Below the pieces are notes generated by a model. The model saw only the letters and a program-made list of their open reading frames with translations. It ran no database searches and was not told the origin of the DNA. Both the position numbers and the translations under genes were made by a program. From positions 4,030,001-4,094,000 of the forward strand of contig JBHGNT010000007.1 of NCBI GenBank assembly GCA_043228905.1: DNA of 64,000 nucleotides. Reading direction: 5' to 3'. The stretch comes from Azolla caroliniana. Its lineage: Eukaryota > Plantae > Polypodiophyta. Position 1 is the first letter of the stretch. Every line of letters begins with the position of its first letter. Positions 12,777 to 58,963 of the stretch are shown here, piece by piece.

Positions 12777-13009
12777 GTGGTTATACTGATTCACTTATAT
12801 ATACCACACGATAAAGACAGTAAGTAGAAAAACGAAGAAGCAATAGCAATAGTGTCAGAAAGAATATCCGTTTCTTATCTCAGTCAAATATGATCAAACA
12901 ATAATACTTCATTATTGACACTATTCAAGTAAAAGGCCTTCTCCAAAGAACACATTAGATTTTTTCTGTTGAGAGGATGGATGTCTACTCAAATTTGGGC
13001 TTATCTGCA

Positions 13010-13630: not shown

Positions 13631-14509
13631 TCCAATAGACACAAGGACAATCCACGTCTCTATACATCTGGACGAACTTAGAGCATCAACTTAAGGAAAT
13701 ATTCAGATCCAAGAGCAATCACACAAACCATCACATCAATATAGCTTGATAGATACCACATTACACAAATTCATGTCTTTATGTCAGCGAAAATAATGCA
13801 TTACAAAAGATGAAAAATCCACACAGGGATACACAAATCTGTCTGCAGTTTAGAAGTAAAATTATGTCAGATTTCAAAGCCAAGGATAACAAAGAAGAAG
13901 GTTAAACCTAAATCAATCGGACCTGGGACAAGGGAGATTGAGAGTCAGAGCTCTATCGATCACCTCATGGCTTGAGTTCAGAGGAGAGGTAACTTGAATC
14001 CAACTAAAATTGCCCCAATTCCATCTACCTACCATTATTATTATACAAACTAAAGAAAGGCTTCGCTTTTTACCATATGAGATTTCACCAATAGAGCTAC
14101 TAGACCTTATAATATAGGGTTGTTTAAATATGGAATGCACATTGAAGGACATCTTCTTTCGTATATGAAAACATCCACTCCCAAGCCATCTCCTTTGGCA
14201 TTTGAAAAGTCCCTGTTGGGTTTGGGGTTGAAGAGGGATAGGGTTTTAAGAATTCGCGGGATTAATCATTTATGGTATTTAGAGTGAAGAGTGCAAATTT
14301 TTAGACGGATGGGACTTATGGTTGTAGGTTAGGTTATAAGATTTAGGTTTTACGGTTCAAGTTCAGTTTAAGATTTAAGTGGATTAGGGTTTAGAATGTA
14401 GAATGATTACGGTTCAAAGGTAGTGATCCAGGGTTTAGAGTTCAAGATATATGGAATAAGAAATAGGACTAAGTAAGGATCAGGGATTATGGTTTTTAGG
14501 ATTGTCTGT

Positions 14510-17500
14510 CTATAACCGACCTCCCCATCCACCTGATGCGTCTGCTATATGAGCACCAGCATATTCAGCAGGTGGAGGGTAGGGATAACCAGCGTTGACA
14601 AACTGAGGTGATGGATATGGAGAGAGGATTTGTAGAGGCTGAGTCAGGAGACGATATTCTATGCCCAGATCTGAGAAGAATCTCTTCATCTCTAAGAGCA
14701 GCTCTGATCTTCTGCTCATTCTCTCACCAAAGTTCTGGAAATTAATGGTGTGTTGCATAGTCACAGAGAGCTTGAGTCTATTTAGCTCCTCCAATTCTTT
14801 TACTATAACACTGAACTTGGGCTGCCAATGCTCACTCTTCTTCTCCACATACCTGCACATGCATAAATAAAATTATTGTCTATCAAAACCGCCTTGTGCC
14901 AGTTGAATTCAAGATTAGGGTTTCGAAGCTTGTGTCAATTGGATACAATTGGATACAAGTTTTGGGGTTCCGAAACTTGTGCCTATAAAATGATCGACTA
15001 GAGTTTTGGGGACAGAAACTTATGTTGGGTTTAGTTAGTATAGAATTAGGAGCTATCGAACCTTCTATTAGACTAGTTCAATATAGGTTACGAAGGATTT
15101 ACAGGTTTGTATCTTCAGAAAATGCAAGTTTTATTACGGGTTTAGGATTTAGAAGCTTGTGGCTATAGAATGGACATCTAGGTAAATTTTGAGATTTAGA
15201 AGATTGTGTCTATTCAATGAGTGCTTAGATTAAGTCTTAGAAACTTGAGTGTTCTGTAGAAGTTTGTGTCTTTGGAATCCATATTTAGAAACTTCGATTG
15301 GAATTTGCGTAAAGTTAAGTTTTACAGGATTGTTTCAATAGTTTGCTTTTACATACAAATAAAATCCGTATTAAACCACAAAACTCACCCTGCGATCTTC
15401 TCCTTGAATGCATTAATCTTCTCTGTTGTCGTTGAGATGTGAACAGCAAAATCCAGGAAGTCTTTCATATCAGGGCTCCGATACAAATTGCTGATCGGCT
15501 TTGTTGCGAGTACGGAATTGGGATAAAACACCTTCTCATTGTCCGGCTTCAAGAATACTGTGGTCAAGATCTTCATCTCCTCCACAACTAGCTGCAATAT
15601 AACCACCACATATAGGTCAATAAACAGTAACATTCCTTTGATTTTGCCCATCATAAGCTAGACCAAATAAAACTGCCTTCCTCTTACCTGGACGCCATCT
15701 ACTATGCACCGATCTCCCACATCATAAGGATGCATCACAAACAAGAATATGATGGCCTCAAATATCTGCTTCACCGTATTACCAAACACAAAGGCAACAA
15801 GCAACAATTGGGAGCCAGCAAACACTAGGATTTGCGTGGATGCAATGCCTAGCACAAGAAGCCACACTACGATGATGATGATGGACACGATAGCGCTCGC
15901 CATGCGATGCAACTCTTTCACTGCAGTCTTCGTATCATTCAAAGAGTGAGCTAGTGACCTCCTCTCTTGATATACTTTCACCTGCATACATCATAGTAGA
16001 AGTCATTAGGGTTTCCCCTTCTGGATCTAGCTGTGTTTATAAGTTTGTAAGCACCTATTCAGTTACAACTAATGTTGCGAGGCTAAACCTTGTACCCATT
16101 ATACGTCCCAGAAAAACCTATGTACACAGGTCCTGGCTAAGTTTGTAGGGCTAAACCTCGTACCCATTATCAATACGTAGGAGAAAACTTTATCTACACA
16201 GTTCCTGGCAAAGTCTGTGGGGCTAAACCTTGTAACCCATACGAGAAAACATATGTACACAGCTCCAGCTTCCAAGCACTGCTATTTTATATACTATGTC
16301 ACATACATCTTAATCTTTCGGTTTTCTTGCTCAAGATCTAGTAGCGTTTAAGCTTGTAGCATTTCTATATTAACAGCATGAAGGCCAACATGTACAGGAA
16401 AACCAACATGCGTTTATCATGAGCTTGGAAATCCTTACCACCCAATTTTTCAATGCCTTTTTGGTAATCTTGCCCGTGTCTTTTGCACCCTCAAATAGAC
16501 ACATCACATTGTTAATCTCCTCTTCAGGTATAAATCGCAAGAGGTCCTCCCTGGTAATAAACCTGGGTAGGCCAAACGGTCAAAACCAAATCAGATATTA
16601 ACAACAAACGATGGAAAGATGTAATGCTTCTTATTTCTTCTTCATGTTTTGATTGAAATGAGCATTTCTAAAACATAAGAAACCTGGGACATTTTTTTTC
16701 CCCACTGTGATTCCTACGTCATTGGAAATCAGGGCCTAACAAGTTGAGCTTCACACTACGATGAATTTGTACATGGTGTTTTTACCAAACATTTCTACAT
16801 GACTGCCAATGTGATGGTATTGTGCACGAAATTACATCACAACATTCTTACAATAGCTTACCCAGAATCTGGTTGAGTCACATTCCTGAAGATCAACTTG
16901 GCAGCAACCTTGGCTTGCAATTCGCTATTAATCTCGACTTCCTGGGAGCTGGTTTCAAATGTATCAACCTCCTGATCAATTGTTGTTACGAGTGCCCGAA
17001 ATCCAGGGTGCTTCACCACACCCATAAGCTTGGTTATCAATCCCGCTGAGATGTCTTGGCTTGAGAGCTTCCGAATGTAATTCATCTGAATCTTATTCTG
17101 GTTGTTACTAACCTTATCATTTGCAGGGGTAGTAGTACTCACTCTCGAGGGCCTCCGAGTCAGGGAGGGCACTTTCTCAGATACTGAGGTTCCTCTCTGG
17201 GACATTGATGATACACCTGGATCCTCACGGTAATACAAATGAAGAGATGGGCCCAACAAAGATTCCAGGATGTGTTGGTTAAACAAGGACTCTTGGATTC
17301 GATCAAAGAAAGTGCTAACATGGAATGATGAAGCAAGAGATTTCACCATAAGAAGCTTAGCTAACCAGATGAATGCAGCGATAACAAAACATTCAAAAAG
17401 ATTTGTTATAACTGATATAATCCGATGGCTTTTTGTGGATGTTTCAACGACTGGATCAATTATGAGTTTCCATGCAAGGAGAGTTAAACCCAACCAGAGA

Positions 17501-19395
17501 CAGTTCTGGACCCCCTTTCGCAACCCGTACACAAAATAAAGAAGCTTCTTACGAACAAGAAAATTCTTTTCAAAGATAAAAATAAGTAGATGGATGAGCC
17601 AACCTGAGACTAATCTTCCGGAGAATATAACGAGAACCATTAAAATCCATTTCCAGAGCTCTAAGCCCCATGCTTCTCTTCCTTTAAGCGGTTTCAGTGT
17701 TAGAGAGCAGAATAAACCTCCTAAAATGAGGACGAAAGCTAACCACTGTAGCACTGTGAGAATCTTTGAGCTCCCGTGGCTGAACTTCGTATCTGTGTCT
17801 ATGTCTTTGAAAGGGTCTTCGTCATCTTCATTTCCTGTAAATTTATGCTGATCTACAGGTACTTCATTGCCTGCAGAACTGTTCTTTGGATTAGCAACTG
17901 ATGGCGGGAGAGGAGGAACTTGAACAGAAACCTCAATTAGCCTTGACTTTGTTTTTGCCTTCTGAACAAACTCTCTTGCGTGAAGAAGAGCAGTTGCCGC
18001 TGTGGCTACGGTGCTCCCTTTGGTATCTGGAGCTTCTACGGAATCTTCGCAATTATTAAGTTCTGTAACCCTATGAGATATACCTGAATGGCCAGGAGAC
18101 TTTACCCTAGAGCTTTCCTTTAAAGCTGAGGGATTACTATTTCGACGATCTCCATTGTCATAGTAACTTGCAGACTCTTTCTTTACATTAAAATCGCTGT
18201 TACACGAATTTGATGTAGACTTGACAATCTGTTGTTTATGACGTTGCATAATATCATCCATAGACTTAAGGTTTTGCTGCAGATCTCCATAAAACATAGA
18301 ACCAGTTTTCTTGTCAATCTGAGTAAGATTGTTCTGGACATGTCTCAGGTTCAGATCGATCGTGGCTTCTTCCGTATCAATCAATGTTGCAGAAGCGTTG
18401 TTCTTTTCCTTCTCTTCATTAAAATTTCCAGCGTCCCTCTTCAAATCCTTGCAGCGGTTCTCTGACGATGTTATATGTTGACTCGAAGTTGTTAAAGAAG
18501 CCAATTTATTCTTTTGATCCCCGTTTTCAGTCTGAGAAGAGAGATTTTGAAGATTCTCCATAGGTCTGGGCTCTGAGTATGTTGCCGAAGAGGAAGATGA
18601 AGTTGAAGACGTGGAAGTGGAGGAAGATGAAGAAGATGGAGACGGAGACGGAGATGGATTAAACCTGCAGTACGGATCAGCTGTTATATTTACTTGCTCG
18701 CGAGCTGAAGAAGAAATATTCGATAGAGAGGTTATGTCGTTATCCAAGATCAGGCGAGAAATTGGCTCTGGTTTATTAGCGATTTCTTTGGGGCAGAAAG
18801 AGAAATCATGAGACTCGAGCAGGTGATCAGAGAGAGGTCGGCGATGGCGATGGAGGTTTAAAACCCTGGCCTCAGGAACAATGTTATCGGTGACATTACT
18901 AGTGTCGTGGTTAACAATAATATTATCGAGGTCTAGAGAATGGTGATGAGGAACAGCTTCTGAGCTTTCATGGCTTCCTCGACGAAATTGAGACAGACTA
19001 TATTCACGTCCAGGAGAAGGTTTGCGTTGTTGCTTTACTCCTGAGACGAGGTCGCCATGGCCGCCATTTTCTGCTGTTATGCTAGCATTGTCTACCGTGA
19101 CAGTGGTAGATTCTGGCGATGACGGAGTTTGTATTAAGCTGTGCGGAAGCTCATTATGTTGAGTATCTTCAGGTTTAGTAGGAAGATGATCAGGACTGGC
19201 TAGCTGCTCCCAAATTGCGTCGTTTCTCTCTGATAATAGTCCTGAGCTTAATCGTTGCTTCTGCACAGACTCTGCAGGATCATCGGTGGGTATGGCGTCC
19301 TTGATGATTTGGCTGGACTCCACAACCCTTACTATCACGGCTTCATTATCGACACCATTGCCATCGCCATCACCATAGCTAGCTTCAGGTTTCAT
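14510..19395 (-). CDS. MSL: MscS-like mechanosensitive ion channel (plant MSL4-10 group), copy A, full length, ~1165 aa
   Basis: Exons 19395-16862, 16562-16439, 15981-15688, 15591-15389 and 14852-14510, all GT-AG and phase-consistent. Same diagnostic motifs as copy B, plus a long Ser/Pro-rich disordered N-terminus. Confidence 0.93.
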
Positions 19396-19984
19396 GGCAG
19401 AATTGCGCAGTTATATAAGCTGTGAGAGGAGAGTATTTGACGCGCCAGACTAACAATAAAACCCTAAACAGAAATAACAAGGAAATTTTGATCCTTTCTT
19501 CTTCCTCCTGCTTTCTTTCTTACTCGTCCTATTCCTTGTATCCTTCTTCATCTTTAATCTCATTCTCTGCAGAACCAATCTGAGCAGAGACTTATGGACT
19601 CAGCAACCGTTCCTTGCCTACATTAGAGCTCTGAACGGGATAATCGTGAAGCAGAAAGCTTGCCGAACCTCATGAGATCAGTGGCGATGGCGAGGATGAG
19701 CAAGCAAGCAAAGCACAAACAACGAGCAAGGGATTTTCTAGGGTTTCAGGAGCAAAACTGCAGGACACATCAAAATTAGGGTTTCAAAGTTTTGGCGGTC
19801 TTTCAGGGGGGGTTTTCCCTGGGGAGGCGAAACCCTCTCTAGAGTATCAAACGTTAGGGGGTTTCCAGCGATGGAGACTGGGGGGGCTAAAGAACTTAGG
19901 GTTTGGGTTTAGGGTTTAGAAGCTAAAAACCCTAGACTCAGAGCGTGGGGTATGGAATCGAGGAATTTGATGGCTGGCGCACTT

Positions 19985-37515: not shown

Positions 37516-37875
37516 TCTAGCAGAGCTCTTCATTTCATTTGGACACCTTAAAATCCTTAGGGTTTAGAGACCTTATACACATATATATGCATAGTACGTA
37601 ATATACTCAAATGCATGGGCAACCATTCTACTTTTACACAAATGCAAACGAATGCGTACGATATCAAAACATTCTTATGTTTCTTTTTTTATTATTACAC
37701 TTTTTACCTTAAAAAATATATTTTTACCTTATAATAAATAACAAATACAAAAGTATATTATTTACCATACTTCGAGGGTGTTTACCATACTCGGATGATT
37801 GAAACAATCTCGAATGAGAATGCACATATGGTTCATACTATGCATATATATATGTGTGTGTGTGAGAGGCAGAGA

Positions 37876-39635
37876 AAGAAAGAAAGAAAGAAAGATATAT
37901 AAACGTCTGCTAAGGCCAAATTTGGTCCATGAGACAAATGGTTTACAAAAAATGGGATATTTACCCATTCATTGAAAGTAAAATAATAATAAATAAATAA
38001 AAAGTTCTAAAAAAAAAACATGTTCTACAATGAAAAGATGTTATACTAGGCCTAATTTCATTTCCATCCAAGTCTCTTGAAGAGAAGCGGGAGGCCGAAG
38101 GGTTGCGATGTGGATGTGGCCCGTGGTCCCGATGTAAAAGGTACCCCAACCATACCTTCTAGTCGACGTAGCTCACGTTCCCTTATCTTCTTAATCTTTT
38201 TTACTCCACGTCGACTTGTTTTGAAGCCCAACTTCCGAGGGCGTTTGGTTGTTCTTTTTATTTCTGCTTCCTCAAGAGAGAGGCCGAAGCAGCGTAAGTG
38301 TATCCACATTCATCGTCTCCCCTTGTTCCTGAAAAATTACACTAGTTACATGTTGATGAATAGTAAAAGGGTTATGATTAACACTTTGTAATTTATTCTC
38401 CCTATGTTGTTTTAGCTCTAAGATATACCTACCTAGTCTTTTTACACGCGGGGTATCTAATAGTTTGGAGAGGGTGGGAGAGGGTCCTAATATGTCTTGT
38501 ATTCCGCCCGTATCTCGGCATAAGTTGGGCACTTGCATGTGAAGTGATACTCATCCTCTATCTCTATGTGGCATAACCTACATAGCCTTTCCTCTCTAGG
38601 GACTCTATTAGCTCGACCATTCTCAATCTCAAGTTGGTGAGATGATATCCTAAGTTATCCAATGGCCACCCTTAGTGCATATGATAAGAATGTATCTAGA
38701 TATCTTGGTTGTGTAATAAAACCTAACTTAGAGAAGTGCAAGAAGTGTTCCTTATAGTACAACATTTTAGATGGGAGTGGCTCTCATGGGGTGATCCATT
38801 TATATCAAGTGTAAATTTGTCATATTTCTTGGCGTATCACTTTATTACGGTTTTCATGAGAGATTAGAGTTTGATCAGTCCCATGGTTGTACTCAAGGGG
38901 AGGAAGGTTATTAATGTCTATGTTGTTTGCAAGTAACCAACTCACCACAATGCTATACCAAGAGCTAATGTCTCTAGATGCATGTAGGGATCGGGATGCC
39001 TCAAAGGCTCAACATGATATCCTATCTTGTGGTTGGCTATGTATCCGATGAATAAAAACTACCATTTGAAAGAGTGCTTCTACTAACATCGGGGGTAGAC
39101 AAAACTCTGCTCTAATAATGTCATGCGATACTGTCGATTTGCTTCGGAGTTGACGTGATAACATCATCACCAAAGGTCTCTCTAATTGTGTCCACATGAA
39201 GGATGGTAGACCTGGAGCCCATACTATTGATGCATGCATGAGGGAAGGGGTCACTAATGAGTCAAAGAGCCATCCCTTAGTCCGTGGCTCTTGAAATTAT
39301 GCCTGGTGGCATTGTCTCTCGAAGAGTGAGAGGGATGCATACCCTCTCGTTAGTCTATCTTTGGCTGCCTGGGTCATCGAGAATTTACCTAAGTGAGCAC
39401 TAAAAGTGACTCCCAAGTATACATATGATCCCACTACCTCAACTAGTTTATGAGAGAGGGTTAGGTGACATTTACTGCTAACTCGAGACGATGTATGAAA
39501 GATAAGGACTTTAGTTTTCGTTAGATTCACTACCAGTCCTGGTTGTGTACAAAAGTCATATAGGGCATTAAGTTGCTTTTGTAGGTCGTGTTCCGACTCT
39601 GAGAGCAAGATAATGTCGTCTATGTAGAGTAAGAG
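37876..39635 (-). mobile_element. 5'-truncated, decayed RTE/RTEX-like LINE
   Basis: The 5' end starts at the RT motif LLLY(I)DDIILLSES, then LVVNLTKTKVL..YVYLG (39297-39608) and broken C-terminal frames. The 3' stem-loop is at 37905-37935 and a (CTTT)n tail at about 37876-37895. Confidence 0.85.
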
Positions 39636-40067
39636 AGAAAGAGAAGAAGAAGAAGAAGAAGAAGAAGAAGATCACTTTGACTTGACTAGACTAGACTCCG
39701 AGAGCAAGACAATGTCGTCTGCGTAGAGTAAGAGAGAAAGAGAAGAAGAAGAAGAACACTTTGACTAGACTAGACTAGACTCTGGGTGGAAAGAGACAAA
39801 GGGAGAGAGAGACAGGGGAGGGTGTTTACCATACTCGGATGATTGAAACAAACTCGAATGCGAATGCACGTATGACGTATGGTACGTATGGTTATACTAT
39901 ATATGTATGTGTGTGAGAGGGAGAGAGAAAGAGAAGAAGAAGAAGAAGAACACTTGACTTGACTTGACTTGACTAGACTAGACTAGACTAGACTCTGGGT
40001 GGAAAGAGACAGAGACAGAGAGAGACAGAGGGAGAGAGAGAGAGAGAGACAGGGGAAGAGAGGGGAG

Positions 40068-43000
40068 ATGGAGTTCGAAGCTCGCAAGCTCCATACCCTC
40101 AGAGCTCTTTCCTCACCTCTCCCTGACAAGTCTCGCAAGGGAGATGTCGACGCTCCCATCGCTGACCTTATCCATCGCATCAACAAACACCCTTCCTTCT
40201 TCACCACAAGTTCTTGCTCAGGTCGTATCTCCATCTCTACTTCCTCGCCTTCTTCTTCTTCTTTTGCGCTTTCTTCCGGGCCTGGGAAAGACGCAGATGA
40301 TGATGTCGTCAGTAGCTCAGATCCGAAGCTTGAGAAAGTTATCCCAAATCAGAAGAAGAAGAAGAAGAAAGGAGGAGATTGGAGCTTTGTTTCTCACTAT
40401 CAAGCTGATCCGGAGGAGGTGTTGCGAGCTTTGATGCAAAATTGTTGTAACTTTGAAGAGGAGAGAAATAAAGAACAGAATGGTGGTAAGGTTGAAAAGG
40501 AAAGGTATATTGACCAGCAGAAGTACACTGAAATGAATGGTGGTAAGGTTGGAGAGGAAAGTGAGGACCGACCGAAATGTGGTATGTATGAAGAGGTAAT
40601 GGATGGTCAACAAAAATCTGGTAAAAATGAAGAAGAAAGATATATTGAGCAGCAGAATTGTGGTAGCTTAATGGTGTTCAGGTTCGAGCCTTTCATTCTT
40701 GCCGCCGAATGTCGAGACATTGCCTCAGCTCAAGCTTTGGTCTCTTGTGCCATATTTTCAGGATTCCGAGAATCAGGTAACTGTTTATGTTTCATAAATA
40801 ATCATAATCTAGGAGGCATTGGGAATCTGGTAATTGTTCATGTTTCATAATATAATCTAAATCCCGGGGATTGTGAGTATCTGATAACTGTTTATCATCT
40901 GTAAACTAGTCTAAGTCCAAGAATATGGTAACTGTTTAGGTTTGAGAGGCTCTTCTGGATTCCTACGATTCTTGTAGTAAATAATTTGTTATGCTCTTAA
41001 ATTTTCAATCTCGAAGATTCGAATAACTATTTATGTTCATTTAGTCCTAATCCTGGAGAATCAAGGACGAGCTGATGGCTAAAGCTAGTAATTGACAAAA
41101 TTTTAATTTATTCTATAAAATGAGGTGAAGAATTACAATTAGAAACATGCTGACATGAGGAACTCCGCCTTATCATGCACAAACACAAGCTTTTATCAGC
41201 CAAGTGACTGTGAAATTCCACAAAAGGATTAGCTTTGAGATTAACAAAAGTGTCCAGGTTATGCTGCACAGCTTTCTGAATTCACTGGTCACTGGTCAAT
41301 CTTTTTATAGGCTTAACCTTGTGCGCACTTGTCTTAATCAGTAAATATGTATACCTTCATATAGACTTAGACTTAATCTTAATCTCGTGTTAATGGGTAT
41401 GGAGTGACATGCATGTGAAAGAAAATGGGTAATGATTAATGTAATAATTTACGTGAGGAAGAACTCAGAGAATCTAATAAAATCAACCATACCAATTAGT
41501 GAGTGACTGATGATGTCTGGAACTGTCCACCTGTGTGCTCCAAATGTAGAGGTTAGATGACTATTGAGACATATATTGGAAGGACTGGCACCGCTGTGTC
41601 TTGTATACATCAGGGAGATGTATTATGTAGAGTTGAGATTGTAACAGTTGCTCATCCATCAAATTGGACGCTGTCCATAATAAACAATTGGTTTGTTAGA
41701 TTACTGTTGCCATGATACATACCATCTGTGGGTGTTGCCCCATGCCCTGTCACCGCAAGGATGGGCCTCGGCATGGCTGGACCCACATTAGCCGTCTCAT
41801 AACCATATGCTACCTGTTTATGCTCATGTGTCCTAATCCTCAGAATGTAATCACTGTTTATGCTCATATAGTGTTAATCGACAATTGATTATCTAGATTT
41901 CATATGCTCTGTATTTATCTCAACTAGGATTGTTCATTAATTCCAGAATCTTGCTCCTCTCAGTCAAGTGTGGTGGCTTTTTCTTAATTTATGTGATTTA
42001 AAGCATACTTTTTACAAATTCTTCTGTTCTTTTGATGGAGATATAAGCTTTTGTTTCTAAATCCTAAATGAGTAAAGCAAAGGGATACTTAACCTGATTA
42101 GTGATGGATTTTTAGGTATCACCAGTATGAGGAAACGCATAATTGTCGCAGTCCGCTGTTCGATTCGTATTGAGGCCCCTATTGCAGTAGGAGACCATCT
42201 TCTCGTTAGCCAAGATTATATAAGATTTCTTGTAGCGATTGCCAATTCTAAACTGGCAAGCAATCATCAAAAAACAAACAAGTTTTTATCTTCTTTCATC
42301 CAACAGGTGTCAAGAATGTTCACTTTGCTTATGATTTTTGTCAAGAAGACATTCTGAATGATATTTTTCTGCTTCATTATGATGTATTTAAATAGGTCGA
42401 GGCTACTTTACATGGAGAAGACATTGAACCCAGAGTCTCTTTCAAACAACAAAAACATCTAAAGCACGAAGAAAAATGTTACCTTTCAGAGAAATGCAAT
42501 ACTAAATCAAGAAGACTTCAATCCAACGACAGAAAGCTTTCAGAACTTGAGAAGAGACAGCTGCGCCTCATATCTAGGCTCGATGAAGCTGAAAAGAAAC
42601 TTCATGATTTATTTCGTGTACCTGTCTTAGATGTGGAGGAGTTGCCTGATTTGAAAATGGGAACGCGAAGTACTATTTCAGGTCAACAATCTAAACAAGG
42701 TCTGGAGGCGTTGTCTTATTCAAAAATGGGAGTGGGGAGTATTATTCCCGAACGACAATCTAAACAAATTAGAGAACCAGAGTTCAAGTTACCTCTAAAA
42801 GGTAGGTAGGTATTCTCATGCTTCATCATTGATGGATAAGGTTTTTAGCTGATGATTTCATTTTTACATGGTTAGAGGCATATTTTAGTTTTCTTATGCC
42901 AACAATCACACTGCCTATTTAGAAGTGCTAATAGGACATTGCATTAGGAACTAGTATTTTCTCTTTCTTCGTTTTGTTTATTTGAACACTGCATAAACAA

Positions 43001-43665
43001 TGCAGCTTATTAGTATGGTCCTATATGATTTTATTATGTGTACCTGCTGAATATTTTTTTTGTTGCAAAATTTTCTATTTCCACAAGATTAAAAGTGTAC
43101 AAATAGACTGTTTCTATGAGTTATGAAGTCATAAATTCATGTGTTTGGGTAATATTTAATTAAAAGTTTTCCCTAATGCAGATCTGAAAGGACAAAATTT
43201 AAGTGTTTGAGTGTTACGTCGGACAAGCTATATCGCTGGGGTCACTCTACATGTTCCTTGCATTGCGTTCCAGGATTTCCTTCAAGATCACTGCTGAGTT
43301 TTGGTGGGTATGGGGGCTCTCTCAGGCAAGGACGTCAAAATGACTTAGTTCTTCTAACACTTGATGATAGTGTGGTGCAGTCTATTGATGCCGAAAATCC
43401 ACCCACCCCAAGGATGGGTCATACAGCATCACTTGTTGGCAGTAAGATGGTTGTGATAGGAGGTAGGGAGGATCCAAGCAAGCCATTAGGTGACGTTTGT
43501 GTGCTTATGCTTGATAAAATGCAATGGCAATACCCTCAAATGGAAGGTGTTTTCTTTCCTCCAAGGTATTTCTACCTGTTATCTATTGTTCATAATATGA
43601 ATCAGAAAAATCTCTGAAATGCCTCTTCAAGTTTTGTTGTTTTTCCAAATGCCTGTGTCCAGACC

Positions 43666-43747
<82 letters not shown>

Positions 43748-46700
43748 TGACTTCACCATATAGGTGATCATATAGCACATATAACTGCTCCAGGCAGGAT
43801 TGGGCTAGGGCATTTGGGGAAGTAATGGAAATTTAGGGGCATTTGGGAAAAGGAAGAAAAACTCGGGATTTTTTCCCTATAAATTATGGTTGCTACTCAG
43901 AGATAAGATTCCTTCCATATTTTGTTTTTGCAGACATAGGCATGCAGCAGTCACCATCGAAGAAAAGGTTTATGTGTTTGGTGGTCTGACCAATGAGAAA
44001 GTCTTAGGAGATCTCTATATTCTAGACACTAACATGATGCAATGGACTCTGGGAGAATGTAAAGAGAAAGTTCCAGCCCCGCGACACTCTCATTCTATGT
44101 CAGTTATAGATAAAAAAATATATCTGTTTGGTGGCTTTGATGGTGCATCTATTCTTGGCGATTTATGGGTCTTAGATCCTGGAACCTTGATATGGACATG
44201 CCTGAACCTAAACACAGTACGAAGATTTTCTCACTCTATGACCGCTTCCTCTGATTTCTTGGTGCTTCTTGGTGGTTGTCCATTGACTAAGAATAAGAAT
44301 ATAGTCACTTTTCTAAATGTGAAAAAAAAAGAATGGAGACATATTGTATGTGATGTCCCACATGAATCTTTGTTTGTACGTCATACGGCCACTTCTATAG
44401 GGAATGAGATTGTGGTGATTGGTGGTGGGGTGACCTGCTATGCATTCGGTATAAGGTTCAGTACACCTATCCTTATGGACCTTGGTTCATTTTCACCAAA
44501 TAAGACACATGAAAATGGGGTCATTCATCATCCAGAGGCTAAGTTCGCCCTTCAAAATGACATGTGGGTGCTAAAGATCGACAAAGCACATGCAAAGATT
44601 ATCAAAGATTATCTGAAGCGACATGGTTGGCTAGATATGAGAAAGAAGGTTAAGACAGAGGAAGATGGCTTGCGTGTGGTTTTTCCTATTACTGTAGAGG
44701 CAGCAAATAAACTGCAAGAATCAGACCTATATGATAGGATATTCAAAGACTGTTTTAATGTTGTTGATGGTCCAGTGGATTGTGAGATAACTCAACTTAA
44801 AGGGCAAAATGAGTCAAAGTCATCGAGGGATCCACGAGAGGTGTTGTATAATGATGTACTTTCCTTATTGCGAAAGTATGATAAACCTCAATCTCTGATT
44901 GAGGAGTTGCCGAAGAGGTAAGCTTTTTGATTTCTTAATTTAGTGCCTTGTTCTTATGTTTCAGTTTCAGTTTTCTAATATTATTAGATAAAGTAGGGTG
45001 GCGTATCGAGATTTACAATGTCAAAATGTAGATGTACTAAACATAATAAAACTATGCCATATTTAGCAATTTGCACATATTAGTTGAAAAGTTATAACAC
45101 GCTAGTAAAAAAATAGTAGTCTAGGCTATTTGATCTGTTAGAGATTATTTCTAATCTAAGCATAAGACAAGGAAGTAAATGATAGATAGAAGGGTGCCGA
45201 TCCTCCCAACCACCCCTGAGCAAAGGGATCGAGATGGAACTTGCACTCGCCCAACTCAAGATTCTGTTCACCACAAGATCATAGTCTCAACGTAGTCGAA
45301 TAATGTGTCTAATGAGGGTATCTAGGCCTCATATTCATAGCCAGACCTAAGGCCGCTAGACAAGCTCACACTTGGCCTTTATGGGTTGTCTCAATCCCTA
45401 GGACTAAAAGTAATCCTACCTTCTTTACACTCTAGAACTCTCGATAACCCTGACACTCTTATCTTCATGTGTAGAATACTACAGTACAAACTACCACGGG
45501 ATAAATTATGATCATGCCTGTAACGTGATCCCTTTATAGTAATTCCATAGACTTTGTCAGTTAATTTCTTGGTACTGCTGAAGCTATTGTATACAGTAAG
45601 CTAAATCTCATATATTTATACATTTCAGATCATCTTGGTTTTTACTTTCTGATAATGTAAATAGTTCAGAAAAACCTTGTAACAGAGGATATGCTTTATG
45701 CAGATGGGAAAGACTTGATGATATGGCAGTGCTTCCTGCTGACGCTTTTAAGAATGAGATCTGGTCATCCTTGGGTGAAGAATTATGGGCAATTGTAGCA
45801 CGGTCTTTGAATGTACAACGTGTTGCCCGTCAGGTGAGATTTACTGTTTGTACATGTTAGGTTACTTTCTTTTGATCCTAAGTCCCCCCCTCCCTGTCCC
45901 ATGTGTGAAATTAATTGTCTATACTGAATGACCCCACTAATAGAAATTTAGTGATGTGGCATTGTTTTGAATAAACTCCTTGTTTCAACTGCTTATTGAA
46001 CTTTTGATTGCATTGCTTTCTCTTCAGCAAGATTATATTATTTGTAAGTAGTGCTATAGATTATATAGCTTGCAAATAAAGGCCATATTTCTAATGATGA
46101 ATTGCTGTACCTCAGTCATGTTTCATTTGCTGCATGATGCAACTATTTCATTAGCAAAATCTGTAGGAAGTGGTTTTAAGCTGTGTTATTTCATTTCTCC
46201 TCTGCTCTAAAATATGTTAGCTCTTGATTGATTGCGCCATAATATTTATAGAAATATATCACGTTAGTGAGAAATAATATTTTATTTGGTAATAACTTTA
46301 AGTATGTTGTGCATGACTTCTAGGCTCGTGTGGCGGCCAATGGCACAAGGGACAGCAAATTGACCTTACTTTTAGGAAGTAATGGTTGGGTACAACATCG
46401 AGAAAATAGTATTTTATACTGTTTTGATGCCACAAAATGCATGTTCTCCTCAGGTAACGTATCAGAAAAGATGAGAATAGCCAAGTTAAACTGCAGCGGT
46501 GAGACAGTTATTGATTTATTTGCTGGCATTGGATATTTTGTCTTGCCTTTCCTTTTGAAGTGAGTACTCCTGATTTCTAGTCATAATCAAAGATAATGAT
46601 GTCTTAATCTGTTTTATTTTCTGGTGATGGTTTTGTTAAGTTCTTAAAGTGCCTGTGTAATACTGGGACAGAGCTAATGCAAAGAGAGTATATGCATGTG

Positions 46701-51975: not shown

Positions 51976-54900
51976 TTTGGTTTTATTATATAAACACAAT
52001 TGGATATTGCAAAGCCCAGACTAAACAAACTTACCACATGTACAAATATAATGATGGAAGGAGAATGGAGCTTTGTGATGATGGCATTGATCTATGGGGA
52101 GAAAAAGGTTGCTCTGAAATGTGTCTAGAGTTCGTGGCCCTTCAATAGTGATCTCTTTCAAAAATTTGAAGGCATATATGTTTTGGAGGCCCACATTTAG
52201 AGATATGGAACTATGTTTTGTTGGTTTTGCGTGTTGGTCACAGATTTCCCAAGAAATGAATGAGAAGTGTGAGAGTTTCTTCCTCATGACATCTAGTTCA
52301 AGACGGACAAATGGAGTTGTGCCTAAATATTGTTGGATCCTACATCATCCCAAGAAAATATATTTTCAAACTTTAAAAGAAGACTCCTGAGTACATTTTT
52401 TAGAAATCTGGAGATTAAGAAAGATATCTATGAGTTCTCTATAAAGACTTATTCTTTATGGCATTCAAACCAACAGTCATTTGGCAGCAAATAGGAGTAA
52501 TCGTATGCTTGATGCCCATGTTAAGTGAAGACTGTTTTTTATAAAGCCGTTGGTCCTCGGCCATGTAGAAACCAAGTTTTAAGCGCCTTTCACAAAGAAA
52601 ACATGTACTTTTGATAATATTGCAAAAAAATTGTCAGTTTGTCTATCAATCTCTCTATTCGTATTTTTTTACATTCTGTAGTTGAATGGCGGAGACTTAA
52701 GGTTTAGGGTTTAGGTTTTAATATAGCATGCTTATTATTCTTTAAACTGTCATCTTCTGTCTAGCACATTAGTATTTGTTTTCTTTTATGGACTGCTTTT
52801 GTGTGACACTTGATTTTATTCTTATTTAAGGGGTTTGTGTCGTGGATAGTACTACTTTAGTGAATGGGCTTGATTTGTTCCTCAATTGACACCTCAATGT
52901 ACCACCAAAGAGGATAAATTTAGGATTATATGAGTGCTTGGTTAGGCATTGTCTAATGATGCCAACAATTGGGCATTACCAAGTTATTTAACATAGGTCC
53001 TTACAAAGCAATAGACTCACTCAGCTTTTGTTCAATTTTTTACTTGGTGATTCTCTTGTTTTTTTGTTCAAATTGAAATTTTGGAATTAAGCAAAGCTAA
53101 CCTAATGAATTATTTTAGTATACTTTCATTGCGTCGATGTTTAGATCTTGCTTTACAACTATGGATTCTATAATCTTTTCTCAAATCTTTCCAGAAAGAT
53201 AAGGATGTTGTCTAGATGTAAATGATTGTCATCTCCACCAAGCCATGAGAATGATTGTCAAGTGTCCGAAAAATGTACACAATAATAAATGACAAGGGTA
53301 TTGGGAAGTATCAAATACTTGAATAGAAACCATGGATATGTATCAATTAGTCTTGTATGTGTTATTTTACTCATCATGAAATTTTCTTAAATCTTGTTTA
53401 GATTATTTGACCATAGAGAAAAACCTTACCCCAATACATTATGGCGTTAATTTTCGCTATTTGCACAAATTTGGTTGGAGCTTAAAGTTCAGATGTCTAT
53501 TGAAATTTGTATTAAAAATCCACGAGTTACTTGGGGTTAGGATACATACTTGGGGCCCCTTCAATTATTGTTTGATATATGCATTGCGCAACTTCTATCT
53601 GTGTTAATGATAGACATCATTATTATTTCATGTCACCTTAAAAGTGTATTGAGTATTTGATATGCAAGATTTTATGTCTCGTATAACCATATATTTATTG
53701 ATTATAAGTAGTTTATGTGATGTTTGATATATTTGGCTTCAATAATTCTCTATAAATAGACGGTAAATTCTGGCATAACCTTTAACAAACTAGAAAGAGA
53801 GGATTGGAATAGGAACACATTCATATGAATCTTCGGTCTAGTTATCATTATACACATTGCATAAATGCCAAAATCATTGGAGACCTTGTACGACAACATG
53901 TACCTCAAAACATATATGAATTTGATATTATACTTTTTGAGATACAAGATAAATAAATCCCTTGTTTCATACAACTAACTTTGACAAGATTGTTATTCCA
54001 ACAAAATTGTATGAGGTATACATCATAGTCCCTTTGCTAACTTATCCATTACCACTCTTGTTCCCCATGTTATTTGTGCATAGCTTGCTTTCAATTTTAT
54101 TCCCATTTTAAGGGTCCCCTTCAATTATTGGCAACCCAATAATAACATTGGCAAGAAACATTGTTGGAGTATGGGGTTCGTCGCAATATGAACACTTGAT
54201 GTTATTTTTGTGATTTGTTGTCCTTTCCTACCAATTTAGTAATTGGATGTTGCTATTTGCAACCATGGTACTAAACTTGTGATTTGCTATCCATTTTGTT
54301 CATGAATGACTAGATGTAGGTCATAAAAATTTTCTCTCTCGTAGAGATTCTTATAACATTTAACTTGCACAATTTCATAATCCATCATGGAGATAATTCA
54401 ACAATATGAGCATATAAGAATAACTTTCCATGAAGTCATTATAGTTGTAATGATTCTTTCTTCACTAACAGAAAAAATATGAACAATTTTGATCTTAAAC
54501 AAGTGTGGTTAAACATCGAACTAAGAATAACTTTCCATAAAGTATTTACAATACAATCCATTTTCTCTTATCACATATCTAACACATGCAATAATTTTGG
54601 TGTTAAATGGGCATGAAGTAAATGTGATGTGTAGGACACAAAGTTTTCTTCATATACATAATACATAAATGCATCTATTTCAAATGACAAGTCTTTCTTG
54701 TACTATTGTGAGAGCCAATTATAGCAGAGGCAAGAGCACTACAAAACCGTGTTTGAAATCAACATCCATGCTACCTTTTAGAAATATCAAGGTTAATTGG
54801 TAAGCCAAGTTATATGACTAAACTAATGACAACACACAATATAGCATTATAAACACATCATATGAAAATTGATGATAATAAGTAGGGATCGGCAACGGCT

Positions 54901-55205
54901 CGGCTCAAGCCTAAACCGTTTGGCTTAGACGGCTTGAAAACGGCTTGGCGGCTCGGTTTAGGCTTGAACTTGCCTTAACGGTTTGAGCTCGGCTCGGCTT
55001 GGCTTGAGCCTTGCCAAACCGGCTCAAGCCGTTTATAAACTTTAGAGAGAGGGGGAGAGAGACAACAGACAAGGGGAAAGAGAGAGAGAGAGAGAGTGTG
55101 TGTGTGAGAGAGTGAGGGAGACTAAACAGACGATGGGAGAGAGAGAGGGAGGGAGAACTACACAGACGTGGAGAGAGAGAGAGAGGGAGGGAGACAACAT
55201 ATAAG

Positions 55206-55252
<47 letters not shown>

Positions 55253-55261
55253 CAGAGGGGA

Positions 55262-57495
55262 GAGATAGATAGATAGATTATATTATCGTCTTCGGAGGTC
55301 AAATATGACCTATGAGACCAAAAATATTACATTTCACGTGATACGTGTGAAAGTGAGTAGTGACTCTTGATGTTCAAGAACTTTACCGATGAATGTTGCA
55401 ATCGAGAGTGCACATTGTGGTTGTGAGAGGAATTCATGCAAAGATTGGGCTTGATCGAAGAGATGTGGAAAGCATGGTCGAATATGATCAAAGGTAGAGC
55501 ATTGTATCAAAGTGTGATACTTAGACTTGCGAACTTGTTTAGGGCAAAGTGTGCATAGCCGACCACTCTCATCACTTGTACCCCAACGCCCTGTTTCACA
55601 TCGCAATGCATGTGAGCTAAGTCGCATGGAAGCAATGGTTCGAATGGCAGATAACGGTATGGGCTCTAACATGTATGGATGTGTACGATTTCCCAGTTCC
55701 GCAAAGAATATGGTTTTGTAGTTAAGTGCAACATGTGTAATATAATGTGTGAAGCGTGAGGCTCCACATTTGTCCCATGTCATGATACATTGGCGTTGCA
55801 AAAATGCTTCATTTACAGAGGAATCTAATGATGCATCATGAAGCAAGTGTCTCACATCCCATCTACCAAACCATTTTTCTATATCTTGCATCCAACCGGA
55901 ACACAAAATTTTGCTTTTATGCGTCTTTTGGATCTTTTTGCTTGCTTCCCACGCAATTCTAGGAAGTCGATGTGAGGGTTTTTTTTGAACCTTAAGCATG
56001 TATTCAACAACCCTTTCCATGGCCATGATCTCAATGGGAAGCGATCCCGTCTCAAGGAGGAGGGTGTAGGGCGTTTGTTTCTTAACTTGTAGAAACTTCG
56101 TAAGAAAATGCTTTTGGACATTTTCAAACTCTTTCCACATAGATTTAGGGATACTACCGCCCCATACTTCCACCCCATAGAGAAGAACCGGTGTCACCAA
56201 AGTGTCGAAAAGATATTTCTTGAGGACCCAACACTTAATATCTCCAAGATTGCATGTGTTCTCAAATGCATAGTATGCTCGCTTGCCCGCCTCTAAGCGG
56301 CGTGTAGCACATTCATTCCATCTATGATTTGAAGGAACTTCAAGGCCAAGATATTTGAAGCTTTCCACACATTCAAGTGGCTCATTGTTGTACATAATGC
56401 ATGGTTTATCTCTTTTTTGCCTCTTCACAAGCATAATCTTTGTTTTAGAGCTATTGACACTTAATTTTGTATGCATGCAAATTTTTTCCAATGCCTTCAT
56501 AAGCTTTTGTGCATCTCCTAAAGTATTTGCAAAAAGCACTACATCATCTGCATATAGCAAAAGCATAATCACAACATTCCTAATGGCAACTTCTTCAACA
56601 CATTCTTCCTTTGCAAACTTGGTAACCATTTCTTCCAATTCATCAATGCATAGACCAAATAGTGTTGGTGAGAGTGGGCATCCTTGCTTAACACCAATAG
56701 TGCTTTTGAAAAAATCTGAAAGTTTATCTCTTATGCGCACACAACATATAACCTTCTCATAAATTCGGGAAATTGCAAGCATATATTCACTTGGCACCTC
56801 AAGTTCTTCCATTCGCCTCCAAAGATGCTCACAAGGTACCATATCAAAAGCTTTCTTGAAGTCTACAAAGCAACAATATAAACCTTTACCTCTAAGGCGA
56901 CTTTCCTCCATTAATACTCGAAGGGTGATAAGGTGATCAATGGTGCTATGGTGTTTCCGAAAGCCAGCTTGTCCATAAGCTCTCTTACCACTTTTTTTAG
57001 CCCATACACTTATCTTTGATTCCATTATACATCCAAATAGTTTTGCCCTTAATGAGCCAACCATGATGGTTCGATAGTTGTTTACATTATTTATATCTCC
57101 ACCTTTATGTAAAGGTTTGATCCAATTTGTAGTCCAATCGTACAACATACCATGTTGCAATGCATCATTAAACATATCGCTTATCCATATATGTGCTTCC
57201 TTTCCCGTTCATTTGAGCATTTCAGCCTTTATACATTGAAGATCGCTTGCCTTACGAGAGGCCAATTTCTTAAGTCCTATGCATATATCTTCAATTGTAA
57301 AGAAGGGAGGCATATGTGAAAGAGAACCATAACACCTTATCTTTCCGGCAAGAGATAACTCATATAAATTCTTATAATGCATAGACAAGTCGTGAAGAGT
57401 TAAGTCACCATAACTCTCAACACGTTTTCCCTTTAGATTTCCCCAAAATTTAGCACATGCATGTGCTTTCTCTTGCGTTTTCCAATGCCTTCATA

Positions 57496-57497
<2 letters not shown>
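55262..57497 (-). mobile_element. 5'-truncated RTE/RTEX-like LINE inserted in a (GA)n tract
   Basis: Contains the 613-aa RT frame, a short 3' UTR with the stem-loop at 55288-55318 and a (CTAT)n/(CT)n tail. GA repeats flank both junctions. No endonuclease domain is present. Confidence 0.92.
55334..57175 (-). CDS. non-LTR retrotransposon reverse transcriptase with C-terminal CCHC-type motif (partial ORF2)
   Basis: Motifs NYRTI, QAGFRKHHSTIDH, FVDFKKAFD, GVKQGCPLSPTLF, LLYADD, FKYLG and RLSSHALRCETGRW..RLCTLC..HTLIQC. Confidence 0.9.
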   Translation of the reverse strand: MFNDALQHGMLYDWTTNWIKPLHKGGDINNVNNYRTIMVGSLRAKLFGCIMESKISVWAKKSGKRAYGQAGFRKHHSTIDHLITLRVLMEESRLRGKGLYCCFVDFKKAFDMVPCEHLWRRMEELEVPSEYMLAISRIYEKVICCVRIRDKLSDFFKSTIGVKQGCPLSPTLFGLCIDELEEMVTKFAKEECVEEVAIRNVVIMLLLYADDVVLFANTLGDAQKLMKALEKICMHTKLSVNSSKTKIMLVKRQKRDKPCIMYNNEPLECVESFKYLGLEVPSNHRWNECATRRLEAGKRAYYAFENTCNLGDIKCWVLKKYLFDTLVTPVLLYGVEVWGGSIPKSMWKEFENVQKHFLTKFLQVKKQTPYTLLLETGSLPIEIMAMERVVEYMLKVQKKPSHRLPRIAWEASKKIQKTHKSKILCSGWMQDIEKWFGRWDVRHLLHDASLDSSVNEAFLQRQCIMTWDKCGASRFTHYITHVALNYKTIFFAELGNRTHPYMLEPIPLSAIRTIASMRLSSHALRCETGRWGTSDESGRLCTLCPKQVRKSKYHTLIQCSTFDHIRPCFPHLFDQAQSLHEFLSQPQCALSIATFIGKVLEHQESLLTFTRIT

Positions 57498-57541
<44 letters not shown>

Positions 57542-57638
57542 TCGAGACCACAGACGTGAGAGAGAGTGGGAGGGAGAGCTTGTACAATGTATAGTATATA
57601 GTATATAGTGGATCATCTGAGAGAGAGAGGGAGGTAGG

Positions 57639-57669
<31 letters not shown>

Positions 57670-57894
57670 AGGTTTCTAAACCGGTTTCCAAGCCGGTTTG
57701 GAAACCGGTTTACAAGTCGTTTACCAAACCGGTTCAGGCCGGTTCAGGGCCTGAACCGGTTTGTGAACCGGCTCGGCTCGGTTCGGCTCAAGTTTGAGAT
57801 CTCGTAAACGGTTTAGGCTTAGCCGGTTTGGCTTGGATAAGGCCAAACTGGCTAAGCCTAAACCGAACCGTTGCCGATCCCTATTCATGGTCTC

Positions 57895-58116: not shown

Positions 58117-58963
58117 CCCTCTCCCAAGATAAGCATATGATAGGTAGAGGAGACTAAGAAGTGTTGTAACTAAGTGGATTTTACATACAATTAATATCAT
58201 GAGTCGTTTGGATTCTATATGCTAATTGTGATGCTCTTTTTTCGTCATCCTCTAATTAATGAATGACACATTTGTAGACTATTGTTATGTCCCCTCGTTT
58301 CATTGTTGGTATGTTGAAGCGGCCTCTTGTAGGCATGTGATTCAGTCTTATGGATGTTTTCACGTTGATCACACCTCCACATGTCTCCATTGATGACTCC
58401 AATTTGCCATGCCTCGTCTTATAGATCAATGAGAGTTGGAATGCTTCAACATCTAGTTTTCAAAAGCATCTAAATAACCGTGTTGACATGAAGTCTAGTT
58501 ATCGCATCCTACTAGATTATGTAGCCTCTTGTCAACTCGTGATAGGAGGTAGTGGATACATGTCCCTCGTGCCTCTTGATTGCTAAGTTCTAACCAACAA
58601 CACGACATTCTAACATTTTATTACCCTACACAAAGTATATGGTTATGGATGGAAATGAAACTAGGCCTAGTATAAAGTCATTTCCTTGTAGAACATGTTT
58701 TTGCTAGAACTCTTTGATTTACATTCTTTTTTTTCTTCTTTTTTCTTTTTTACTTTCGATGAATGGTTAAATACCCCATTTTTATTGTAAACCAATTGTC
58801 TCATGGGCTAATTTTGGTCTTAGAAGACGTTAATATATCTTTCCTTCTTTTCTGTCTGTCTCTCTCTTGGTAAAAACACACAATTATATTAATTGTATGT
58901 AAAATCCATAGTTACAACACTTCTTAGTCTCTTCTACCTAACTATCCTATGTAGGGAGAGGGG
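58117..58963. repeat. ~80-bp inverted repeat pair enclosing a LINE-type 3' end
   Basis: 58141-58197 matches the reverse complement of 58886-58940 with one substitution and one 2-bp indel. Weaker pairing extends to 58117/58963. Confidence 0.8.
58647..58868 (+). mobile_element. 3' terminal fragment of the RTE-like LINE family (or a SINE-like derivative)
   Basis: GGATGGAAATGAAA.TAGGCCTAGTATAA...TTGTAGAACATG...GTCTCATGG...AGACGTT.ATATATCTTTC aligns with the reverse complement of about 37890-38070. It ends in a CT-rich tail. Confidence 0.85.

What the first reader, a model, noticed from the sequence alone, without database searches (positions are those of the whole stretch)
55262..55335. A 31-nt covarying 3' stem-loop shared by three divergent LINE ends, each next to a GA/CT-rich tract
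Seen: three separate 3' ends carry an element of exactly 31 nt. In sense orientation they are GTCTCAT-AGGTCA-TATT-TGACCT-CCGA-AGAC (55318-55288), GTCTCAT-GGACCA-AATT-TGGCCT-TAGC-AGAC (37935-37905) and GTCTCAT-GGGCTA-ATTT-TGGTCT-TAGA-AGAC (58798-58828). The outer GTCT/AGAC stem and CAT bulge are invariant. The inner 6-bp stem changes sequence but keeps pairing (G-U allowed; one mismatch in one copy). Each is followed by a short AT-rich linker and a CT-rich tail (CTAT, CTTT, CT). The upstream 3' UTRs of the 55 kb and 38 kb elements are dissimilar. Known: 'stringent' LINEs such as eel UnaL2 and insect SART1 recognise a 3' stem-loop and often end in short repeats. Inference: this is the RT-recognition signal of a microsatellite-targeting RTE/RTEX-like LINE clade that pairs its CT tail with genomic (GA)n, possibly with SINE-like partners. 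I do not know of a description of it in plants.
Basis: partly seen in the sequence, partly recalled or inferred. Interest (0 to 1): 0.8.

Follow-up and report, generated by a model that had tools for sequence, protein, structure and literature searches.

The report
LINE tail hairpin doubling as switch
The small hairpin at the tail of these plant jumping genes is real and old, and one of its arms is complementary to the bases just after the stop codon that splits the element's two genes 3.4-3.9 kb upstream, so it likely works as a virus-style RNA switch between making the copying enzyme (likely by reading through that stop) and being copied, in elements that prefer to land in CT/GA repeats.

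Summary
The three 31-nt motifs are there, but they are two LINE families, not three: A at 55 kb, B at 38 and 58.8 kb. Among the three, only one pair changes on both sides; the rest is decay. Genome-wide the pattern has 2,903 hits (control 89), and 69 of 70 sampled are A or B 3' ends. Across 12 lineages the hairpin covaries (116 of 120 cells paired), but its length (28-45 nt) and tail repeat vary. A and B are two-ORF APE-RT LINEs, likely RTE-X, with ORF2s about 30% identical. They prefer pre-existing (CT)n: 19 of 65 5' junctions against about 1% background, and 59 of 59 empty paralogous LTR sites carry the repeat. The bases 7-9 nt after that stop are complementary to one arm of this hairpin and covary with it. 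The likely mechanism is a tombusvirus-like switch between readthrough and reverse transcription. No function was tested.

The parts
55288..55318 (-). Family A 3' hairpin: 4-bp outer stem, CAU bulge, 6-bp inner stem, 4-nt loop. In full-length copies the 5' arm with CAU is the predicted partner of the post-stop sequence.
55265..55287 (-). Family A 11-nt AT-rich linker and (CTAT)3 tail
55334..57208 (-). Open remnant of family A ORF2 (624 aa): RT domain and C-terminal Cys/His motif. The stop is 15 nt before the hairpin.
55277..57480 (-). 5'-truncated family A LINE, 97.9% identical to a full-length copy. It lacks ORF1, the junction and the endonuclease.
57498..57541 (+). Host (GA)n tract at the 5' junction of the A copy; two more units remain at 55261-55264. 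Empty copies of the host element carry the GA run here.
54883..57883 (.). Host: non-autonomous DNA transposon with inverted ends and a GA-rich interior. Empty copies are 401-945 bp with 8-bp target duplications (hAT-like; label recalled).
37905..37935 (-). Family B 3' hairpin, with one private mismatch in the inner stem
37873..37904 (-). Family B linker and (CTTT)5 tail
37895..39636 (-). 5'-truncated, decayed family B LINE (91% to a young copy). Its 5' flank is (CTT)n.
58798..58828 (+). Family B 3' hairpin in an old fragment
58646..58838 (+). Old family B 3'-end fragment (77% to a young copy), no ORF2 match, no CT run at its 5' side

Best explanation
This is the conserved 3'-terminal hairpin of two-gene, likely RTE-X LINEs, and it likely acts as a two-state RNA switch: one arm is predicted to pair with the bases just after the in-frame stop between ORF1 and ORF2, which would promote readthrough to make the ORF1-ORF2 enzyme, and when refolded as the local hairpin it would mark the RNA end for reverse transcription, likely primed at a nick in (GA)n DNA. 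Shown from sequence: the hairpin at LINE 3' ends, its covariation, the in-frame single stop, the complementarity and its covariation, and the preference for pre-existing (CT)n. Predicted: both folds and their mutual exclusion. Inferred by analogy: readthrough, enzyme recognition, the order of events (a ribosome reading ORF2 would melt the duplex and free the hairpin, so only complete RNAs make enzyme and are copied in cis), and tail-to-target pairing.
For: Local hairpin: on an unfitted MAFFT alignment of 12 lineages RNAalifold finds both stems, with outer pair 4 as UA 6, CG 3, AU 2, CA 1. Six lineages give 60 of 60 cells paired, four pairs with two-sided changes, and 1 of 500 shuffles as high. 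A motif-anchored table gives 116 of 120 paired against a shuffled mean of 100, with 0 of 20,000 as high. Reading the tree by eye, outer pair 4 changed about four times. The only common in-family variant, C21 to T (16 of 65 A, 11 of 63 B), keeps a G-U pair and lies outside the long-range duplex. A model built on six sequences recovers 3' ends of a distant branch (L188 and M2 loci). Junction: one in-frame stop in all 39 A and B copies printed, with the first in-frame ATG at codon 161 in A and 103 in B. ORF1 and ORF2 share a frame in 16 of 18 outside loci. The stop has a type I, II or III readthrough-like context in 13 of 18, against 0 of 15 terminal ORF2 stops (types from PMC3159437). Duplex: in 9 of 16 elements the best helix for the 3' motif anywhere in the element starts 7-9 nt after the stop (11-18 bp; no other of about 520-585 windows as good), matching the 8-9 nt spacer of viral readthrough structures (PMC3159437). 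The partner changes with the hairpin in A, B, C, L163, M2 and the wholly different L232. Cofolding favours the duplex by 9-20 kcal/mol in 10 valid rows and opens the hairpin. The CAU bulge, unexplained by the hairpin alone, lies inside the duplex. Target: (CT)4 or more at 13 of 38 A and 6 of 27 B 5' junctions against 0.7-1.2% background; 17 of 18 long A copies, full-length or truncated. Empty paralogous LTR sites carry (CT)n in 29 of 29 and 30 of 30, and 7 of 7 complete empty copies of the window's own host element carry GA runs.
Against: Nothing functional was tested. The duplex is not the best helix in 7 of 16 elements: four M3 copies, two decayed M2 copies, and L188, which shows none. L189 also shows no junction match, and by eye the L164 junction does not match the hairpin of its relative L169. 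Seven of 41 outside loci with a held 3' region show no motif, among them B-like L165 and L167 (read by eye; no model hit). The C junction scores as well on the A end (39) as on its own (37). Cofold energies ignore the cost of closing a 3.4-kb loop. An in-frame GTG (A, B) or ATG (C copies, L197) sits at the edge of the duplex, so re-initiation is not excluded. UAG-G is a loose context. No consistent large stem-loop follows the stop. Shuffle controls ignore relatedness, the table was anchored by hand, and R-scape was not available. The clade label has no labelled reference in the tree.
Confidence: 0.52

Rival explanations
1. Same switch, different output: the long-range duplex positions ribosomes to re-initiate at the GTG/ATG a few codons after the ORF1 stop, so ORF2 is made as a separate protein rather than by readthrough.
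For: Codon 3 after the stop is GTG in A and B, and ATG in two C copies and L197. SART1 and L1 use termination-reinitiation (PMC5972666, passages).
Against: That codon is GAG in L163, AAT in L164, ACG in L162 and GGG or TGG in most M lineages. Fifteen of 18 outside loci have no Met before the endonuclease motif. The frame is kept, and all three viral context types occur.
Confidence: 0.2
2. One reading: the hairpin is only the stringent 3' signal bound by ORF2p, and the junction match is incidental or secondary.
For: It sits 10-11 nt before the tail like known stringent signals (PMC4176376 abstract; PMC3472496). Both stems covary, including the arm not used by the duplex. Some lineages keep the hairpin without a clear duplex (L188, L189, M3).
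Against: An 11-18 bp complement at a fixed +7 to +9 offset, best in the element in 9 of 16 and changing with the hairpin across proteins about 30% identical, is not chance. The invariant CAU bulge is explained by it.
Confidence: 0.12
3. The hairpin only regulates translation or protects the RNA end by hiding the pairing arm; the enzyme recognises the AT-rich linker and tail repeats instead.
For: The GAC-GWUAA linker is conserved in sequence across lineages. Tail repeats are proposed to steer RTE priming (PMC6007223). No SINE borrowing the hairpin was found.
Against: GUC/GAC and GG/CC are invariant in 12 of 12 lineages even where the duplex uses the other arm, which fits a protein-binding face.
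Confidence: 0.11
4. The end-to-junction pairing serves RNP assembly or RNA stability rather than decoding, and ORF2 is made from a leaky stop on local context alone.
For: Type I and II contexts can act with little structure (PMC3159437). L164 has an exact type I context with no visible partner.
Against: The fixed 7-9 nt spacer fits action at the ribosome entry channel (PMC3159437).
Confidence: 0.05

Closest known systems
Tombusvirus PRTE-DRTE readthrough switch (PMC3234231; abstract and one discussion section read)
   Same: A stop before the polymerase frame, pairing over about 3.5 kb with a 3'-terminal replication structure, mutually exclusive folds, and a proposed quality-control and cis-preference logic.
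   Different: Here it is a LINE. The duplex is 11-18 bp directly after an 6-8 nt spacer, with no consistent large stem-loop at the stop. Nothing is shown by experiment.
Stringent LINE 3' stem-loops: zebrafish elements (PMC4176376, abstract), monocot L1 with ZmSINE2/3 (PMC3472496, part 1 of 3), plant RTE with Au SINEs (PMC6007223, abstract and passages)
   Same: A short covarying hairpin just before a tandem-repeat tail; plant examples exist.
   Different: Two-stem form with invariant GUC/GAC and GG/CC, kept between ORF2s about 30% identical. An arm is shared with a long-range duplex. No SINE partner was found and binding is untested. I did not compare sequences with those papers' figures or supplements.
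RTE-X (RTEX) clade (PMC3905857, PMC6890710, PMC12477816, PMC10294476, passages)
   Same: Real ORF1 plus APE-RT ORF2, 4.6-5.3 kb, short-repeat tails. RTE-X is listed in a fern genome (8,733 elements), and Ectocarpus RTEX shares 3' ends with a non-autonomous partner.
   Different: ORF1 is coiled-coil plus a weakly L1-like region, with no esterase hit. The passages seen describe no hairpin, junction stop or (CT)n preference. Placement was not tested against labelled references.
Microsatellite-targeting LINEs such as Waldo, Mino, Kibi and Koshi (recalled, no call)
   Same: APE-type LINEs that insert into simple repeats.
   Different: A preference, not strict specificity: 19 of 65 in an unbiased sample, 2 of 20 in family C. 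A different clade by recall.

Membership tests
RTE-X (RTEX) LINEs | ORF2 with APE endonuclease and RT | tested here: met
   Pfam Exo_endo_phos and RVT_1 in A and B ORF2
RTE-X (RTEX) LINEs | A real ORF1, unlike RTE | tested here: met
   Open frames of 289-309 aa, homologous across lineages. Only a weak match to L1 ORF1p, E 0.08-0.27. Criterion from PMC3905857.
RTE-X (RTEX) LINEs | RT groups with labelled RTEX references | not testable with these tools
   The tree has no labelled references; PDB gives R2 and L1 at similar E-values
RTE-X (RTEX) LINEs | Ends in short tandem repeats, not poly(A) | tested here: met
   CTAT, CTTT, TTCTAA and others; table in PMC3472496
RTE (BovB-type) clade | ORF1 rudimentary or absent | tested here: not met
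   Full ORF1 present
Stringent-type LINE 3' stem-loop | Conserved terminal hairpin with compensatory changes | tested here: met
Stringent-type LINE 3' stem-loop | Bound by ORF2p and required for retrotransposition | not testable with these tools
   needs binding and retrotransposition assays
Stringent-type LINE 3' stem-loop | SINE partner sharing the 3' end | tested here: inconclusive
   No shared non-LINE head among 22 short copies; small sample from one contig
Tombusvirus-type long-range readthrough switch | In-frame stop before the polymerase in a readthrough context | tested here: met
   (13 of 18 against 0 of 15)
Tombusvirus-type long-range readthrough switch | Post-stop sequence complementary to a 3'-terminal structure, excluding its local fold | tested here: met
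   Predicted: best helix in 9 of 16 elements; cofold opens the hairpin
Tombusvirus-type long-range readthrough switch | Large stem-loop directly 3' of the stop | tested here: not met
   No consistent local fold across the 10 valid rows
Tombusvirus-type long-range readthrough switch | Readthrough product depends on the pairing | not testable with these tools
   needs reporter or proteomic data
Strict microsatellite-specific LINEs (recalled) | Nearly all copies lie within the target repeat | tested here: not met
   13 of 38 A and 6 of 27 B, 2 of 20 C; 17 of 18 only among long A copies
Strict microsatellite-specific LINEs (recalled) | The repeat pre-exists at empty sites | tested here: met
   29 of 29 and 30 of 30, 7 of 7; three host families only

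The most novel reading that the evidence does not exclude
A whole clade of LINEs, from plants to likely algae (and, by another unchecked note, molluscs), makes its reverse transcriptase as a Gag-Pol-like ORF1-ORF2 readthrough fusion licensed by its own 3' hairpin. The hairpin flips between a long-range duplex and the template signal, giving a physical mechanism for LINE cis-preference that converges on tombusviruses.
Probability: 0.45. Interest if true: 0.88.

Novelty: new variant of a known kind. Interest (0 to 1): 0.72.

Why it matters
How LINEs translate ORF2, and why their enzyme prefers the RNA that made it, are long-standing open questions. Here one 30-nt element ties both to base pairs that can be broken and restored one at a time. 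Young intact copies exist: about 99% identical, with many open 1,126-aa and 1,250-aa frames. It also explains why two families with 30% identical proteins keep nearly the same tail, and it documents a (CT)n-preferring plant LINE with empty-site evidence. The hairpin alone, as first proposed, would be an ordinary new member of a known kind.

Tried and rejected
Three independent families in the window: rejected. (CT)n as part of the element's 5' UTR: rejected, since it flanks different truncation points and is present at empty sites. CT tail or GA targeting as a clade-wide property: rejected. Rfam: only a sub-threshold snoR64 hit, E 2.4. Viral contigs: 1 locus, without a 3' end. SINE heads: none shared; low-stringency tRNA calls were scattered and not at a common position. 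Family D search: only 2 of 25 loci showed the hairpin within 330 nt, so D rests on one duplicated old locus. RNA runs: no RNA holder listed; contigs of four runs cannot show expression. Atlas: unnamed RT clusters only. A whole-genome search with the RNA model was not possible, so further variant families remain unsampled. A duplex score with free interior loops was too noisy and was replaced by ungapped helices. Invalid rows: L360 was dropped (internal deletion); the L164 rows and the M3_L195 row matched the wrong stop and were ignored. The first tree did not finish; four short rows were dropped. Target-site duplications could not be read inside the repeats. Paper searches found no description of this hairpin, of readthrough in RTE-X, or of (CT)n targeting by plant RTE-X; one search returned only irrelevant papers. 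Kapitonov 2009 was not held, Kojima 2005 was not retrieved, and Repbase reports and the papers' supplements were not seen and may bear on novelty.

Full report
Observation. The three motifs are present as described (3 matches, 0.21 expected) and fold as drawn. They are not three families. The 38 kb and 58.8 kb ends are 78% identical over 259 nt. Against full-length copies, the window holds one 5'-truncated family A element (55277-57480, 97.9%), one decayed family B element (37895-39636, 91%) and one old 193-nt B fragment (58646-58838, 77%). The differences between the two B copies are rare or private variants. The evidence in the window itself is therefore one family contrast.

The elements. 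The genome (523 Mb; a land plant, likely a fern, by inference and earlier notes) has 2,903 matches to the pattern against 89 for the reversed control. Of 70 sampled hits on one contig, 69 are A or B 3' ends, five of them no more than motif plus tail. Full-length A is about 4.6 kb, with a 309-aa ORF1 frame and a 1,126-aa ORF2 frame. B is about 5.3 kb, with 289 and 1,250 aa. ORF2 has APE and RT domains and a C-terminal Cys/His motif. A and B ORF2 are 29-30% identical. A real ORF1 argues for RTE-X over RTE (PMC3905857, passages), and RTE-X is listed in a fern genome (PMC6890710, passages). The label is not tested by a tree with references.

Covariation. The genome holds further families: C (812 pattern hits against 113 control, many of them chance), and older D and E. 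A metagenome scan gave 80 loci. Of 41 with a held 3' region, read by eye, 31 carry the motif, 3 a variant and 7 none; the 31 fall in about nine lineages. The tree joins A, B, C, L163, L169, L171, L186 and L189 in one clade, and puts M1-M3 and L188 on a separate deep branch (hosts not established). RNAalifold on an unfitted alignment of 12 lineages finds both stems. Six well-aligned lineages are fully paired with four two-sided pairs. A hand-anchored table gives 116 of 120. GUC/GAC and GG/CC never vary, outer pair 4 takes UA, CG, AU or UG, length runs 28-45 nt, and tails differ. These shuffles ignore relatedness. A model built on six sequences finds ends from the distant branch and only the three sites in the window. 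Rfam has nothing.

Target. (CT)4 or more lies at the 5' junction of 13 of 38 A and 6 of 27 B copies, against 0.7-1.2% background, and of 17 of 18 long A copies with different 5' ends. Two A copies sit in LTR families whose empty copies all carry (CT)n at that spot (29 of 29 and 30 of 30). The window's own A copy sits in a GA-rich DNA transposon whose seven complete empty copies all carry GA runs. In these three cases most of the tract stays 5' of the element and 2-5 units stay 3'. Family C shows 2 of 20 at the 5' side and 5 of 20 at the 3' side. So this is a preference of A and B, not a rule tied to the hairpin. Pairing of the CUAU or CUUU tail with a nicked (GA)n strand is inferred; a similar role for tails was proposed for RTE (PMC6007223, passages).

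All three window copies lack the ORF1/ORF2 junction. In full-length copies the two ORFs are in one frame, split by one stop: UAG-GGA in A, UGA-CGG in B, UAG-CAA in C, and UGA-CGG, UAG-CAA-UCA, UGA-CGA or UAG-G in relatives. These are the three viral readthrough classes (PMC3159437, passages). Thirteen of 18 outside junctions fit against 0 of 15 terminal stops, the frame is shared in 16 of 18, and 15 of 18 have no Met before the endonuclease motif. I saw the in-frame stop. An earlier AI note from this genome (e1-10620961) then pointed to pairing between the junction and the 3' UTR, and I tested it. In 9 of 16 elements the best ungapped helix for the 3' motif starts 7-9 nt after the stop, spans 11-18 bp and beats every other window in the element. 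In the A/B/C clade the partner is the hairpin's 5' arm including CAU. In M2 and L232 it is the loop and 3' arm. The letters change together: outer pair 4 is U-A with junction A in family A, and C-G with junction G in C and L163; the A-to-G change at position 8 in B and L163 is matched by U-to-C at the junction. Contigs of four other runs mostly read the fully matching base at junction position 4497 of L061. Cofolding favours the duplex by 9-20 kcal/mol before loop cost and opens the hairpin. The misses are real: four M3 copies, two M2 copies, L188 and L189 lack a best-in-element match, and L164 does not match L169.

Mechanism. The arm has two covarying partners that it cannot hold at once, which is the definition of a switch. 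The closest worked-out case is the tombusvirus PRTE-DRTE system (PMC3234231, abstract and section 17). I infer that the duplex promotes readthrough on complete RNAs, that the ribosome reading ORF2 melts it, and that the hairpin refolds and is bound by the new enzyme, as stringent LINE hairpins are (PMC4176376, abstract). Reverse transcription would then start at a nick, preferably in (GA)n. Re-initiation at the GTG or ATG at codon 3 is the main rival (SART1 and L1 precedents in PMC5972666, passages).

Novelty. Covarying LINE 3' hairpins are already published for plants (PMC3472496, part 1 of 3; PMC6007223; review PMC3747384, passages), so the finding as written is a new member of a known kind. 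Ten paper searches and passages of PMC11203168, PMC12477816, PMC11481361 and PMC10294476 gave no report of this motif, of RTE-X readthrough or of the switch. Repbase reports, subscription papers and supplements were not seen. Two unchecked notes of this scan describe the readthrough duplex. What is added here is that its 3' partner is an arm of a conserved, covarying hairpin, and the target evidence. Verdict: a real feature, a new variant of a known kind, interest 0.72.

Noticed in passing
L006, L015, L019, L316, L324: Five of 70 sampled copies begin within 2 nt of the hairpin's 5' base (31-33 nt long), against three copies in the next 30 nt. This may be a preferred truncation or template-switch point, or an effect of how the sample was picked.
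   Followed up: no
window 57481-57497: The 5' junction of the A copy carries about 17 extra nt that resemble ORF2 sequence near 56425-56445 by eye, possibly a template jump during integration.
   Followed up: no
window 54883-57883; L363-L381: Abundant non-autonomous DNA transposon (706 candidates) with a GA-microsatellite interior and 8-bp target duplications. The window copy shows no duplication by eye.
   Followed up: partly
L242-L301: Two young LTR families (matches paired about 4.8 and 5.3 kb apart) carry (CT)n inside their LTRs and so spread target sites for these LINEs; several sampled A and B copies sit in them.
   Followed up: partly
L091-L107, about positions 2400-2950 as oriented: The family B 5' UTR is about 500 nt of GC-rich GCC/GTC/CTG-type short repeats, variable between copies, unlike the short 5' UTR of family A.
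   Followed up: no
window 39595-40850 and 43177-44921: The B copy ends just upstream of a gene with TYW3 and Kelch exons. About 40 nt of its 5' end is locally duplicated at 39694-39735.
   Followed up: no
window 6678-19410: A large, twice-present repeat (7405-12624 and 14058-19023) with long open frames (585 and 850 aa) that have no significant Pfam match.
   Followed up: no
L165 and L167: B-like elements with long ORF2 matches but no terminal hairpin. L167 still keeps the junction partner sequence.
   Followed up: partly
L109 (- strand, about 8000-8700), L067, L106, L110: Different families of this clade often lie nested or tail-to-head next to each other, as expected if they share CT-rich targets.
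   Followed up: no
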